NCBI RefSeq assembly: GCF_006345805.1
Contig: NC_043000.1
Span: 141,670,001 to 141,734,000 of the forward strand
Length of the DNA: 64,000 nucleotides
Direction of reading: 5' to 3'
Source: Octopus sinensis
Lineage: Eukaryota
Shown: piece after piece, positions 21,729 through 46,210 of the stretch
Position numbering within the stretch: position 1 is the first letter of the stretch
Layout: the number at the start of each line of letters is the position of its first letter
Notes under the pieces: generated by a model
Told to the model about the DNA's origin: nothing
Seen by the model: the letters and a program-made list of their open reading frames with translations, nothing else
The model's database searches: none
Made by a program: the position numbers and the translations under genes

Positions 21729-22456
21729 AAACTCAAGAAATATAAGAGAAAACATAACATTACAAGCTCGATAGCCAACCGTACAATTCGTCGTAGCATG
21801 TACGAATGTTTATCTTTACATATCTATGAAAATGGCGGGCTTATTCGCAATGCATTTCGGTACCAAATTGTCTAGTCGGAATAAAAATTCAGTATTGAAC
21901 TATTCCGGTGAAAAATATAAATTAACAATTGAGGATAAAATCTTAAAAAGAAATTATCAGTAGTCAGCGTGAAAAACCTCGTAAGAGAAAAAATCCGTAA
22001 ATTCTTCCTCTTTGAAAATATTCCGAATTCTTTTTTAAAATGATGTGTTTTGAAGTTTTGCATTCGGTAAAATTTTGTTTATTTTTAGTAGTTTTGACTG
22101 CATTGGTCCCTCTTAGCGTGTTGGTATCTACGAATAGTAGTACCCTCAATATAATATAAATGAATATTTTCAAAGAGGAAGAATTTACGGATTTTTTCTC
22201 TTACGAGGTTTTTCACGCTGACTACTGATAATTTCTTTTTAAGATTTTATCCTCAATTGTTAATTTATATTTTTCACCGGAATAGTTCAATACTGAATTT
22301 TTATTCCGACTAGACAATTTGGTACCGAAATGCATTGCGAATAAGCCCGCCATTTTCATAGATATGTAAAGATAAACATTCGTACATGCTACGACGAATT
22401 CTACGGTTGGCTATCGAGTTTGTAATGTTATGTTTTCTCTTATATTTCTTGAGTTT

Positions 22457-22520
22457 GTTGCACTGATGAACATGAAATGCATATTCTGCATTAAATGCGA
22501 AATCACATGTGATATGTAAC
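22457..22520 (+). ncRNA. Type I hammerhead ribozyme with long stem II
   Basis: GTTGCA-CTGATGA-a-CAT-ga-AATGCA(tattc)TGCATT-aa-ATG-c-GAAA-TCAC(at)GTGA-TA-TGTAAC: stem I GTTGCA/TGTAAC and palindromic stem III ATCACATGTGAT. Predicted cleavage after 22514. Confidence 0.85.
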
Positions 22521-22713
22521 CGAATTCTTTTTTAAAATGATGTGTTTTGAAGTTTTGCATTCGGTAAAATTTTGTTTATTTTTAGTAGTTTTGACTGCAT
22601 TGTCCCTCTTAGCGTGTTGGTATCTACGAATAGTAGTACCCTCAATATAATATATATATATATATATATATATATATATATATATATATATATATTATAT
22701 AAAATATATATAT

Positions 22714-23045
22714 GCAGGCGTGACTTTGTGGTAAGAAGCTTGTTTTACTACCATATGCTTCCGGTTTTAGTCTCACTGCATGGCAAGTGTCTTCTAGTAT
22801 AACGTCGGGTCGATCAAATCTGTGTGAGTGGATTTGGTAGATGGAAACTGAAGGAAGCCGCTGTATGTATCTGTATCAGTGTGTGAGCTTCCTTTGTGTC
22901 TGTGTTAGCGATTCAGCAAAATGACCGGTCAAATAAGTACTCGGCTTGAAGGAAATATGTTCCAGGGTCGATTTGTTCGACAAAAACTCTGCAAGGCGGT
23001 ACTCCAGCAAGGCAGCAGTTGAATGACTAAAAGAAGTAAAAGAAA
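22714..23045 (+). mobile_element. tRNA-derived SINE (family B)
   Basis: GCAGGCGTGACTTTGTGGTAAGAAGCTTG..GGCAAGTGTCTTCTA..GTGAGTGGATTTGGTAGA.GGAAACTGAA, colinear with 4648-5094. Confidence 0.82.
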
Positions 23046-41755: not shown

Positions 41756-42569
41756 CTATAAATATGTATTATTGATATTGGAAATGTGAAGAGACTTGCA
41801 TTTTGTGTTCTCAACCCGTTGAAAGTTGGCGATGACAGTGGAGTCAAATTTGTAGCTATTTGCACAGTAAAATAAATATATTAAATCTAACACTAATATC
41901 GAAAACGAAATGATATCAAAAGTACAAATGTGAAATAAACAGGTTATATGTGCAGTGATATGATGAAAATAACATAACACTAACTGCAATATAAATTACG
42001 AATTTATAGCTATAGGTAGAGTGATATGTGTTGATAGAAGGAGTGACATTGGTGAAGATAATGATTATTTTGTGATGATAATGATGATAATTTTGGGATG
42101 TTAATGACCCTTAGAAAACTCGCATAAAAATACGTTGCTTTTATATTATGCTCAAGGTCCATCCTAATGCGAGGGCGAATAAATATATTATAGAAATAAC
42201 GGTTTAGTAATGACTTGTTGTTAGTTGGTAACAATGACGAGAGAAAATGCATTTATAAAGAATATTTATATTCATAAAAAAAAAGAGAAAACGAAGCTGG
42301 AGACTTGGTGCTCCGTAGAATGAGATTCAGACGGCGGGCGAAATTAATAAAGTGCTATAAAAGAGGGGGAAAAAGAGCTCTTCAGTAGGTCAACCAGTAG
42401 GCCCCTATAAATGTCACATATAAAACCATATACAAGCACACATACTCTCACACACAAGCACCCATACATACACTCTTTGACTCATATATATATATACATA
42501 TCTATATATATATATATATATATATATATACACACACACAGAAGCACATACATGCATATATATATATAT

Positions 42570-45500
42570 ATGTGCTTCGTTGATGTTGATCAGTTAGCTG
42601 ATCGGCTTAAGCGAAGCAGGGTCGTTGTTTATTTATAGTATATTCAGGCCTGCTGATGATTACGTAAGTATGAAATCACTGTGATACAGGTCTATATATT
42701 TTTAAATGTCTTTCTTTGAAAAATTGCATTCGGTAGGATTAGTAATACTTTTGGTAGAAATGACTGATTGTCCCTCTTAGCGTATGGCTGTATGTATGTA
42801 GAATGCCTCCTGGCATGTATGTATAATGCCCTCTCTATATATAAATTAATATGTTCAATAAGAAATAATTATTTTCGAAATTTTTTCTCTTATGAGGTTT
42901 TTACGCTATCTACCTGACAATTTCTTGTTAAGTTTTCCTTATTAAGTAGTTGTCCTTAATTGCTAAATTTTTATTCCGAAAAAACTTTTCCTCTCCCGAA
43001 ATGCAATTCGTAAAAGTTTGCCATTCATCCGGATATAGTATATAAAATTCACCCATGTGCTTCGTTGATGTTGATCAGTTAGCTGATCGGCTTAAGCGAA
43101 GCAGGGTCGTTGTTTATTTATAGTATATTCAGGCCTGCTGATGATTACGTAAGTATGAAATCACTGTGATACAGGTCTATATATTTTTAAATGTCTTTCT
43201 TTGAAAATTGCATTCGGTAGGATTAGTAATATTTTTGGTAGAAATGACTGATTGTCCCTCTTAGCGTATGGCGTGTATGTAGAATGCCTCCTGGCATGTA
43301 TGTATAATGCCCTCTCTATATATAAATTAATATGTTCAATAAGAAATAATTATTTTCGAAATTTTTTCTCTTATGAGGTTTTTACGCTATCTACCTGACA
43401 ATTTCTTGTTAAGTTTTCCTTATTAAGTAGTTGTCCTTAATTGCTAAATTTTTATTCCGAAAAAACTTTTCCTCTCCCGAAATGCAATTCGTAAAAGTTT
43501 GCCATTCATCCGGATATAGTATATATAAATTCACCCATGTGCTTCGTTGATGTTGATCAGTTAGCTGATCGGCTTAAGCGAAGCAGGGTCGTTGTTTATT
43601 TATAGTATATTCAGGCCTGCTGATGATTACGTAAGTATGAAATCACTGTGATACAGGTCTATATATTTTTAAATGTCTTTCTTTGAAAAATTGCATTCGG
43701 TAGGATTAGTAATATTTTTGGTAGAAATGACTGATTGTCCCTCTTAGCGTATGGCGTGTATGTAGAATGCCTCCTGGCATGTATGTATAATGCCCTCTCT
43801 ATATATAAATTAATATGTTCAATAAGAAATAATTATTTTCGAAATTTTTTCTCTTATGAGGTTTTTACGCTATCTACCTGACAATTTCTTGTTAAGTTTT
43901 CCTTATTAAGTAGTTGTCCTTAATTGCTAAATTTTTATTCCGAAAAAACTTTTCCTCTCCCGAAATGCAATTCGTAAAAGTTTGCCATTCATCCGGATAT
44001 AGTATATATAAATTCACCCATGTGCTTCGTTGATTTGATCAGTTAGCTGATCGGCTTAAGCGAAGCAGGGTCGTTGTTTATTTATAGTATATTCAGGCCT
44101 GCTGATGATTACGTAAGTATGAAATCACTGTGATACAGGTCATATATTTTTAAATGTCTTTCTTTGAAAAATTGCATTCGGTAGGATTAGTATATTTTTG
44201 GTAGAAATGACTGATTGTCCCTCTTAGCGTATGGCGTGTATGTAGAATGCCTCCTGGCATGTATGTATAATGCCCTCTCTATATATAATTAATATGTTCA
44301 ATAAGAAATAATTATTTTCGAAATTTTTTCTCTTATGAGGTTTTTACGCTATCTACCTGACAATTTCTTGTTAAGTTTTCCTTATTAAGTAGTTTCCTTA
44401 ATTGCTAAATTTTTATTCCGAAAAACTTTTCCTCTCCCGAAATGCAATTCGTAAAAGTTTGCCATTCATCCGATATAGTATATATAAATTCACCCATGTG
44501 CTTCGTTGATGTTGATCAGTTAGCTGATCGGCTTAAGCGAAGCAGGGTCGTTGTTTATTTATAGTATATTCAGGCCTGCTGATGATTACGTAAGTATGAA
44601 ATCACTGTGATACAGGTCTATATATTTTTAAATGTCTTTCTTTGAAAAATTGCATTCGGTAGGATTAGTAATATTTTTGGTAGAAATGACTGATTGTCCC
44701 TCTTAGCGTATGGCGTGTATGTAGAATGCCTCCTGGCATGTATGTATAATGCCCTCTCTATATATAAATTAATATGTTCAATAAGAAATAATTATTTTCG
44801 AATTTTTTCTCTTATGAGGTTTTTACGCTATCTACCTGACAATTTCTTGTTAAGTTTTCCTTATTAAGTAGTTGTCCTTAATTGCTAAATTTTTATTCCG
44901 AAAAAACTTTTCCTCTCCCGAAATGCAATTCGTAAAAGTTTGCCATTCATCCGGATATAGTATATATAAATTCACCCATTGCTTCGTTGATGTTGATCAG
45001 TTAGCTGATCGGCTTAAGCGAAGCAGGGTCGTTGTTTATATTATAGTATATTCAGGCCCTGATGATTACGTAAGTATAATGTGATACCTGATAGGTCTAT
45101 ATTTTTTAAAATGTCTTTCTTTGAAAAGGCATTCGGTAGGATTAGTAATATTTTTGGTAGAAATGACTGATTGTCCCTCTTAGCGTATGGCGTGTATGTA
45201 GAATGCCTCCTGGCATGTATGTATAATGCCCTCTCTCTATATATAATTAATATGTTCAATAAGAAATAATATTTTCGAAATTTTTTCTCTTATGAGGTTT
45301 TTACGCTATCTACCTGACAATTTCTTGTTAAGTTTTCCTTATTAAGTAGTTGTCCTTAATTGCTAAATTTTTATTCCGAAAAAACTTTTCCTCTCCCGAA
45401 ATGCAATTCGTAAAAGTTTGCCATTCATCCGGATATAGTATATATAAATTCACCCATGTGCTTCGTTGATGTGATCAGTTAGCTGATCGGCTTAAGCGAA

Positions 45501-46210
45501 GCAGGGTCGTTGTTTATTTATAGTATATTCAGGCCTGCTGATGATTACGTAAGTATGAAATCACTGTGATACAGGTCTATATATTTTTAAATGTCTTTCT
45601 TTGAAAAATTGCATTCGGTAGGATTAGTAATATTTTTGGTAGAAATGACTGATTGTCCCTCTTAGCGTATGGCGTGTATGTAGAATGCCTCCTGGCATGT
45701 ATGTATAATGCCCTCTCTATATATAAATTAATATGTTCAATAAGAAATAATATTTTCGAAATTTTTTCTCTTATGAGGTTTTTACGCTATCTACCTGACA
45801 ATTTCTTGTTAAGTTTTCCTTATTAAGTAGTTGTCCTTAATTGCTAAATTTTTATTCCGAAAAAACTTTTCCTCTCCCGAAATGCAATTCGTAAAAGTTT
45901 GCCATTCATCCGGATATAGTATATATAAATTCACCCATGTGCTTCGTTGATGTTGATCAGTTAGCTGATCGGCTTAAGCGAAGCAGGGTCGTTGTTTATT
46001 TATAGTATATTCAGGCCTGCTGATGATTACGTAAGTATGAAATCACTGTGATACAGGTCTATATATTTTTAAATGTCTTTCTTTGAAAAATTGCATTCGG
46101 TAGGATTAGTAATATTTTTGGTAGAAATGACTGATTGTCCCTCTTAGCGTATGGCGTGTATGTAGAATGCCTCCTGGCATGTATGTATAATGCCCTCTCT
46201 ATATATAAAT
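42570..46210 (+). repeat. Tandem array of ~482-bp hammerhead-containing units (retrozyme-like satellite), 7 full units plus ~270 bp, inserted in (TA)n
   Basis: Units start (ATGTGCTTCGTTGA) at 42570, 43055, 43537, 44020, 44496, 44978, 45456 and 45937 and are nearly identical. Confidence 0.97.
42646..42693 (+). ncRNA. Type I hammerhead ribozyme (repeated at 43131, 43613, 44095, 44572, 45531, 46013; disrupted at 45054)
   Basis: AGGCCTG-CTGATGA-t-TAC(gtaa)GTA-t-GAAA-TCA(ctg)TGA-TA-CAGGTCT: 7-bp stem I, GNRA-capped stem II, stem III ATCACTGTGAT. Predicted cleavage after 42686. Confidence 0.88.

What the first reader, a model, noticed from the sequence alone, without database searches (positions are those of the whole stretch)
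22023..46210. The 496-bp and 482-bp families are homologous, with a shared long-range RNA fold and the same 3' junction
Seen: the same motif order in both units despite low overall identity. It runs hammerhead with TCAC..GTGA stem III, then TGCATTCGGTA, GACTG..TTG(G)TCCCTCTTAGCGT, CCCTC..TATAAAT, TTTTCTCTTA.GAGGTTTTT.ACGCT, TTTTATTCCGA and CCGAAATGCA. Several motifs are mutually complementary and nested: TGCATTCGG/CCGAAATGCA, ATTG(G)TC/GA(C,T)AAT, and AGCGTG/CACGCT in one family versus AGCGTA/TACGCT in the other (compensatory G-C to A-U). Both insertions end (22650, 46210) at the homologous CCCTC..TATA site. Inference: a conserved compact RNA structure and a built-in AU-rich priming segment target these RNAs to (TA)n, defining a superfamily of microsatellite-targeted ribozyme retroelements.
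Basis: partly seen in the sequence, partly recalled or inferred. Interest (0 to 1): 0.8.

Follow-up and report, generated by a model that had tools for sequence, protein, structure and literature searches.

The report
Two-start ribozyme parasites of Penelope elements
Two related ribozyme-carrying repeats in this animal genome share a predicted RNA fold and end at either of two fixed sites inside TA repeats, and mirror-image insertions almost always use one of each, which likely shows how Penelope-type jumping genes copy one RNA onto both DNA strands.

Summary
Homology is real and plain: 337 of 534 columns identical, z=16. The two families belong to a genome-wide group of seven or more lineages of 450-500-nt hammerhead repeats (3,142 + 366 motif hits), i.e. 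non-LTR retrozymes. Most of the proposed fold holds under compensatory change; the ATTGTC/GACAAT helix fails; an all-pairs R-scape-like test finds nothing significant. The 'same 3' junction' is half the story: there are two conserved junctions, J1 and J2, 110-125 nt apart, each behind a hairpin. 300 of 319 ends fall there, 280 of these into (TA)5+, and 95 of 97 classifiable head-to-head insertions pair one J1 with one J2. Both arms share rare variants. This is the Penelope-like element (PLE) 'tail' and inverted-copy signature, known qualitatively. Autonomous PLEs here also end in (TA)n with two ends, so targeting is likely the PLE endonuclease's, not the RNA's. Best model: twin priming on one RNA. 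No partner PLE was found. The scan earlier noted related palindromic PLE stumps in a shark.

The parts
21420..22023 (-). Family A inverted arm, 1.2 units, 5'-truncated, 3' end at J2 running into (TA)n
   Evidence: L001
22023..22654 (+). Family A direct arm, 1.27 units of 496-497 nt, 5'-truncated, 3' end at J1 running into (TA)n
21371..21427 (.). left half of the (TA)n target
22645..22713 (.). right half of the (TA)n target
22457..22520 (+). type I hammerhead motif of A (CUGAUGA, long stem II, GAAA, UCAC/GUGA stem III; predicted cut after 22514; A.C instead of G-C at the base of stem II)
   Evidence: sequence; stems I and II covary, stem III invariant; no Rfam hammerhead match
21665..21728 (-). 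hammerhead motif of the inverted A arm
22059..22334 (+). domain closed by the long-range helix TGCATTCGG (22059-22067) / CCGAAATGCA (22325-22334); holds both junction sites
22115..22219 (+). inner helix AGCGTG (22115-22120) / CACGCT (22214-22219), stacked on AGTAG/CTAC helix; encloses J1
22123..22160 (+). J1 module in the first A unit: GGTA..TACC hairpin (22123-22144) followed by CTCAATATAATATAAAT
22227..22270 (+). J2 module: GATAA..TTATC hairpin (22227-22251) followed by CTCAATTGTTAATTTATAT
42570..46208 (+). Family B array, 7.6 units of about 482 nt, single arm, 5'-truncated, TA on both sides, 3' end at J1; two variants carried by 7 of 7 matching units
45532..45577 (+). type I hammerhead motif of B (one of 7 intact copies; predicted cut after 45571; U.U at the base of stem II); the copy near 45059 is broken
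45797..45849 (+). J2 module of B: GACAA..TTGTC hairpin (45797-45835) followed by CTTAATTGCTAAAT
46184..46245 (+). J1 of the B array (CCCTC at 46193) and the TA-rich target that follows

Best explanation
These are non-coding hammerhead retrozymes that likely borrow the reverse transcriptase and endonuclease of a Penelope-like element, which would nick both strands of a (TA)n repeat and likely prime one strand at J1 and the other at J2 of the same folded RNA. Shown by sequence: one homologous group of lineages, a fold kept by compensatory change, two fixed 3' ends each behind a hairpin, (TA)n flanks, random 5' ends, head-to-head arms that pair J1 with J2, and rare variants shared by both arms. 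Inferred: transcription, hammerhead cleavage and ligation into a monomer circle; binding of a dimeric PLE protein to the domain closed by TGCATTCGG/CCGAAATGCA; priming with 2-3 nt of TA pairing; rolling of each enzyme round the circle (or along an uncut multimer); joining of the two cDNA ends by short microhomology. When only one strand is extended, a single arm ending at J1 or J2 would result. About 0.9 for 'PLE-mobilised retrozyme', about 0.6 for twin priming on one RNA.
For: Ends: 300 of 319 distinct 3' ends at J1 (163) or J2 (137), 19 elsewhere; 280 of 300 followed by (TA)5+ against 312 of 4,451 background windows; in a position-ordered sample 65 of 66. Of 113 inverted pairs 95 are J1+J2, 2 J1+J1, 0 J2+J2, 16 have an unclassified end; 95 of 97, p 3e-26 against 0.5; 25 of 26 in the position-ordered sample. 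Rare variants shared by both arms: B 37 (26 in one arm only) against 1.1 for mismatched arms, A 19 (34 one arm) against 0.8; one variant sits in all 13 readable units of both arms of L070. In 28 of 95 pairs neither arm fits inside the other. 58 of 113 centres overlap by 0-3 nt. 49 of 65 arms run through the cut site and 5' ends are not enriched there (18 of 318, 13.8 expected). Fold. Autonomous PLEs here show the same two-end, TA-flanked pattern: Neptune-type 14 short and 15 tailed ends about 30 nt apart; Hydra-type 11 short and 14 at 150-190 nt, of 29. In vitro a PLE protein cuts and extends both strands of AT-rich DNA and starts at two internal RNA sites that bound the tail, with a predicted dimer (PMC11167929).
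Against: No autonomous partner found: the 3' regions of the PLE families sampled give no profile match (best E 0.15), alignment z -1.3 to 0.6, and 50 non-TA 5' flanks share no new sequence. The all-pairs covariation test has no significant pair (best E 2.85 of 110,215 pairs); 3 of 124 structure pairs pass E<0.05. Single-sequence folds of A and B share only 44 of about 150 pairs. A and B hammerheads lack the usual G-C at the base of stem II and match no Rfam hammerhead; 8 of 9 frog retrozymes did not cleave in vitro. In vitro the start site did not differ between strands. 67 of 95 pairs are also compatible with fold-back by length. Shared variants could come from a uniform parent array or later gene conversion. 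Most loci were picked as best hits to queries ending at J1.
Confidence: 0.7

Rival explanations
1. PLE-mobilised retrozyme, but the inverted arm arises by fold-back or self-priming of the first cDNA (or an antisense template) and the second end is set by endonuclease cutting at the other J site, as proposed for PLE inverted repeats and tails.
For: Proposed in PMC3846280 (self-priming) and PMC8557442 (tail from endonuclease resolution). It also predicts one J1 and one J2 end and shared variants. 67 of 95 pairs have one arm short enough to be a copy of the other.
Against: In 28 of 95 pairs neither arm fits inside the other; only 15 of 91 pairs have 5' ends within about 25 nt of each other in unit coordinates; single arms also end at J1 or J2 (56 and 36 of 94, some of them unresolved pairs); in vitro the tail ends are RT start sites.
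Confidence: 0.17
2. One reading: the RNA targets itself to (TA)n by base-pairing an AU-rich segment at one conserved junction.
For: J1 is followed by TA-like sequence and ends cluster where TA or AT pairing is possible (B J2: 40 of 47 ends at three such positions), so short pairing likely sets the register.
Against: Two junctions, not one; at J2 pairing is 2-3 nt yet 125 of 137 ends are in (TA)5+; unrelated PLEs share the target; (TA)n preference is ascribed to PLE endonucleases (PMC8557442).
Confidence: 0.07
3. The arrays are DNA-level satellites grown by unequal crossover from detached PLE terminal repeats; the fold is inherited, not needed.
For: Suggested for frog retrozymes. Units within an array are near-identical (97%); post-insertion homogenisation cannot be excluded.
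Against: Multi-unit arms keep exact J ends and TA flanks on both sides and lie in opposite orientations; compensatory changes accumulate between lineages in parts far from the ribozyme and junctions; no parent terminal repeat found.
Confidence: 0.06

Closest known systems
Metazoan non-LTR retrozymes (Cervera and de la Pena 2020, PMC7229834; Li et al. 2026, bioRxiv 10.64898/2026.07.22.740005)
   Same: Non-coding, AT-rich tandem units, each with a type I hammerhead, predicted highly self-paired, co-existing with PLEs.
   Different: Units of 450-500 nt (170-400 in the 2020 paper; 51-972 in the preprint). The passages I read describe no fixed double 3' end, inverted arms, (TA)n target or fold conserved across families; 'octop', 'cephalopod', 'microsatellite', 'inverted' have 0 hits in the 2020 main text. 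No matching PLE terminal repeat found here, unlike 24 of 57 frog families.
PLE insertions with pseudo-LTR, inverted 5'-truncated copy and 30-40-bp tail (PMC3846280; PMC8557442; PAc in vitro, PMC11167929)
   Same: Two 3' ends downstream of the hammerhead, tail on one end only, head-to-head inverted copy, AT-rich or (TA)n target.
   Different: No ORF; tail of 110-125 nt; multimeric arms on both sides; both start sites lie behind hairpins inside one covarying domain; the one-end rule is counted here (95 of 97).
Twin priming of LINE-1 (recalled, no call)
   Same: Both target strands prime on one RNA and the cDNAs join by microhomology, giving a 5' inversion.
   Different: Second primer site is fixed, not random; arms overlap in sequence and can each exceed one unit (26 of 95 pairs); the J2 arm does not stop at J1.

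Membership tests
metazoan non-LTR retrozyme | type I hammerhead in each unit | tested here: met
   Core CUGAnGA/GAAA/UH in all lineages; stem I 4 of 4 and stem II 2 of 3 pairs with two-sided change, stem III invariant. No Rfam match; base of stem II non-canonical in A and B.
metazoan non-LTR retrozyme | small non-coding, low-GC tandem units | tested here: met
   GC about 0.33; no stop-to-stop frame of 120 aa inside either insertion except one that is mostly TA repeat; up to 16 units per arm.
metazoan non-LTR retrozyme | highly self-paired monomer RNA | tested here: met
   Circular fold z -3.2 (A) and -5.6 (B) against 60 shuffles, weaker on the other strand; compensatory changes.
metazoan non-LTR retrozyme | self-cleavage | not testable with these tools
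   needs in vitro transcription
metazoan non-LTR retrozyme | accumulates as circular RNA | tested here: inconclusive
   Contigs that go back by one unit occur in small and in deep runs alike and cannot tell a circle from a tandem; genomic arms fit a circle or an uncut multimer.
element mobilised by a PLE | two 3' ends (optional tail) | tested here: met
   J1 163, J2 137 of 319; tail longer than the 30-40 bp in print
element mobilised by a PLE | 5'-truncated inverted copy at the 5' end, tail on one end | tested here: met
   113 pairs, 95 J1+J2
element mobilised by a PLE | microsatellite or AT-rich target | tested here: met
   280 of 300 against 312 of 4,451
element mobilised by a PLE | homology to the terminal repeat of an autonomous PLE in the same genome | tested here: inconclusive
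   None among about 110 PLE loci from Neptune-type and Hydra-type families; only the top candidates of 5,000-15,000 were scored and other clades were not sought
element mobilised by a PLE | target-site duplication | not testable with these tools
   cannot be read inside (TA)n

The most novel reading that the evidence does not exclude
A folded domain of about 330 nt holds two hairpin-marked start sites, one for each half of a dimeric PLE reverse transcriptase, so that one circular RNA is copied in rolling fashion from both strands of a cut (TA)n repeat at once. This would be the general origin of the PLE tail and head-to-head inverted repeats, and the domain a minimal RNA cassette for two-strand insertion into TA repeats.
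Probability: 0.4. Interest if true: 0.8.

Novelty: new variant of a known kind. Interest (0 to 1): 0.6.

Why it matters
How PLEs make their inverted repeats and one-sided tails is an open question (PMC8557442, PMC3846280), and the claim that animal retrozymes ride on PLEs rests on co-occurrence and terminal-repeat homology in frogs. Here hundreds of small, young insertions give counts that separate the models: one J1 and one J2 per inverted insertion, arms from one template, and arms too long for fold-back in 28 of 95 cases. The RNA is short, has a fold backed by compensatory change, and names the sites to mutate, so the mechanism becomes testable in vitro.

Tried and rejected
Rfam: no hammerhead family among the 150 of 185 window matches shown, nor in two focused scans. 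Claimed helix ATTG(G)TC/GA(C,T)AAT: rejected. All-pairs covariation with a tree-based null of my own writing (not R-scape itself; 43 rows, 40 null alignments): no pair significant, too few independent lineages, and that alignment had the J2 hairpin out of register (realigned with 32 of 43 rows dropped for lack of anchors). Templating by cleaved linear monomers: 5' ends not enriched at the cut. LINE-1-like blocking of the J2 arm at J1: 5' ends spread over the unit. Autonomous partner: searched by the window's two PLE endonucleases and Pfam GIY-YIG, by profile and pairwise alignment and by shared 5' flanks: none. Expression: no RNA holder listed. Earlier scan notes by place and by sequence: none. 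Literature searches gave no paper on these families or on twin priming in PLEs; the library lacks most subscription papers, and supplements were not read, so a listing of cephalopod hammerheads there cannot be excluded.
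Full report
Setting. The window lies in a 2.72-Gb animal assembly (G000) rich in TA and ATT microsatellites; size and make-up recall an octopus (from memory, not tested). Family A is a 497-nt unit at 22023-22654 with a second, inverted arm at 21420-22023, the whole sitting inside one (TA)n tract. 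Family B is a 7.6-unit array of 482 nt at 42570-46208, TA on both sides.

Homology. A and B align over their whole length, 337 of 534 columns identical, score 372 against 167.8 +/- 12.8 in 1,000 dinucleotide shuffles; blastn finds 71% over 239 nt. The shared pattern TGCATTCGG..CCCTCTTAGCG occurs 3,142 times in the genome, its reversed control 0 times. Patterns that exclude A and B, and searches with the variants found, gave further lineages: 308 distinct monomers fall into 43 clusters at 95%, 14 at 90% and 7 at 85%, with intermediates linking A and B. One more lineage, found through a loose end in run contigs, has 366 motif hits.

Hammerhead. Every lineage has CUGAnGA, stem II, GAAA, a UCAC/GUGA stem III and a cut after UA or UC. 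On 19 natural stretches stem I shows two-sided change at 4 of 4 pairs and stem II at 2 of 3. A and B lack the usual G-C at the base of stem II, and Rfam finds no hammerhead. Cleavage is untested.

Fold. Circular folds are more stable than shuffles (z -3.2 and -5.6). With helices read off family B, 45 pairs are formed in 92.9% of cells, 15 have two-sided change against 2-5 when slid, and 0 of 500 shuffles reach the covariation score, though 491 of 500 reach the number of pair types. The two stacked inner helices give 98.2% and 3 of 12. To avoid picking pairs by their covariation I took single-sequence folds and counted same-branch double changes on a tree of 32 rows (11 of 43 dropped): outside the ribozyme B's fold has 14 events in 11 of 125 pairs (slid 1-4; shuffled partners 2.4 +/- 1.7, max 8 of 300) and A's 12 in 10 of 120 (slid 2-8; max 6). 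The lineage found last, not used to derive the structure, keeps 127 of 141 pairs. Against: an all-pairs test with a tree-based null finds no significant pair, and 3 of 124 within the structure; A's and B's own folds share 44 of about 150 pairs.

Junctions. Mapping arms in 226 loci (14 ends were moved from 'other' to J1 by motif after BLAST ran into the TA run or met a 20-nt duplication) gives 319 distinct 3' ends: 163 at J1, 137 at J2, 19 elsewhere, in all eight lineage groups. J1 follows a GGYA..TRCC hairpin and J2 the GAYAA..TTRTC hairpin, 110-125 nt downstream; in A both read hairpin-CTCAAT. (TA)5+ follows 155 of 163 J1 and 125 of 137 J2 ends, against 312 of 4,451 background windows. Most loci were best hits to queries ending at J1, so I also used 36 of the first 41 loci of the position-ordered list: 65 of 66 ends at J1 or J2. 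Of 113 head-to-head insertions 95 pair J1 with J2, 2 pair J1 with J1, none J2 with J2, and 16 have an unclassified end; the ordered sample gives 25 of 26. Duplicated contigs may inflate counts slightly. In the last lineage two inverted insertions are J1+J2 and a third has an arm ending short of J1.

One template. Rare variants are shared by both arms of an insertion far more than by arms of different insertions (B, 31 insertions: 37 shared, 26 in one arm, control 1.1; A, 19 insertions: 19, 34, 0.8), and are present in every readable unit (13 of 13 in L070, 10 of 10 in L085, 6 of 6 in L090). 49 of 65 arms cross the cut site and 5' ends are not enriched there, so the template is a circle or an uncut multimer. 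In 28 of 95 pairs neither arm can be a copy of the other. 58 of 113 centres overlap by 0-3 nt (BLAST ends, so approximate).

Who moves them. The window itself holds a Neptune-type PLE (8920-11400; RT, CxxC linker, GIY-YIG) and a remnant of another clade (50964-51822) whose relatives carry the DKT motif described for Hydra. Both clades have intact-looking copies, a hammerhead, two 3' ends and (TA)n flanks: tails of about 30 nt and 150-190 nt. None matches the retrozymes. TA targeting is thus common to PLEs here; the partner is unidentified.

Literature. Seen: bioRxiv 10.64898/2026.07.22.740005, parts 1-3 of 5, arguing from 35 mostly vertebrate genomes that retrozymes are non-autonomous PLE derivatives; PMC11167929, parts 1-2 of 4, showing a PLE protein that cuts and extends both strands of AT-rich DNA and starts at two internal sites bounding the tail; passages of PMC8557442, PMC3846280, PMC7229834 and PMC13282606 (no mention of ribozymes). 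No supplements were read. The tail on one end and the inverted copy are known in words; I found no count of the rule, no long-tailed retrozyme and no twin-priming account in six searches.

Verdict. This is a large retrozyme group bearing the PLE insertion signature with an unusually long tail. Most likely a PLE protein primes both strands of a cut (TA)n repeat on one RNA, at J1 and J2; fold-back with endonuclease resolution is the main rival. Class known, variant and counts new: interest 0.6.

Noticed in passing
window:8920-11400 +: Neptune-type PLE, 5'-truncated, one stop at 9874-9876, hammerhead variant near 11196-11247, 30-nt AC-rich tail into TA; relatives with 775-aa open frames, 15,135 first-look candidates.
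   Followed up: yes
window:50964-51822 -; L347-L366: Hydra-type PLE families (DKT motif, hammerhead with branched stem II) with two 3' ends 150-190 nt apart, far longer than the 30-40-bp tail in print, and N-rich linkers.
   Followed up: partly
window:45520-45690, runs X2, X3, X11, X17: Contigs of four small runs show clustered A>G and T>C changes (A>G plus T>C at 9 of 12, 17 of 18, 23 of 23 and 20 of 22 listed places; up to 29 changes in one 238-nt contig), nearly absent at the same sites in two deep runs (6 of 11, 5 of 8). Looks like A-to-I hyper-editing of double-stranded transcripts, which inverted arms would supply. The runs are only guessed to be RNA, carry other organism codes than the deep runs, and have no matched DNA.
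   Followed up: partly
window:22277-22309; lineages A and D: The conserved TTTATTCCGA pairs with an upstream CCGGA(A/G)TA insert found only in A and D; elsewhere it could compete with CCGAAATGCA for TTCGG, a possible switch just downstream of J2.
   Followed up: no
L083 (G000:C13:59497000-59506900): Two near-identical inverted B insertions lie 130 nt apart, probably a local duplication or assembly repeat.
   Followed up: no
L019, L067: Other PLE fragments sit in the same TA tracts as retrozyme arms, i.e. repeated use of one target.
   Followed up: partly
window:16221-17116 -; 47821-48197; 34195-35500 and 40958-41497: A third PLE-like RT fragment; a 180-nt-arm palindrome; GC-richer inverted repeat pair, probably other retroelements.
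   Followed up: no
family B loci: Variants fixed within single insertions are skewed to T>C (11 of 32) rather than A>G (1 of 32); small numbers.
   Followed up: no
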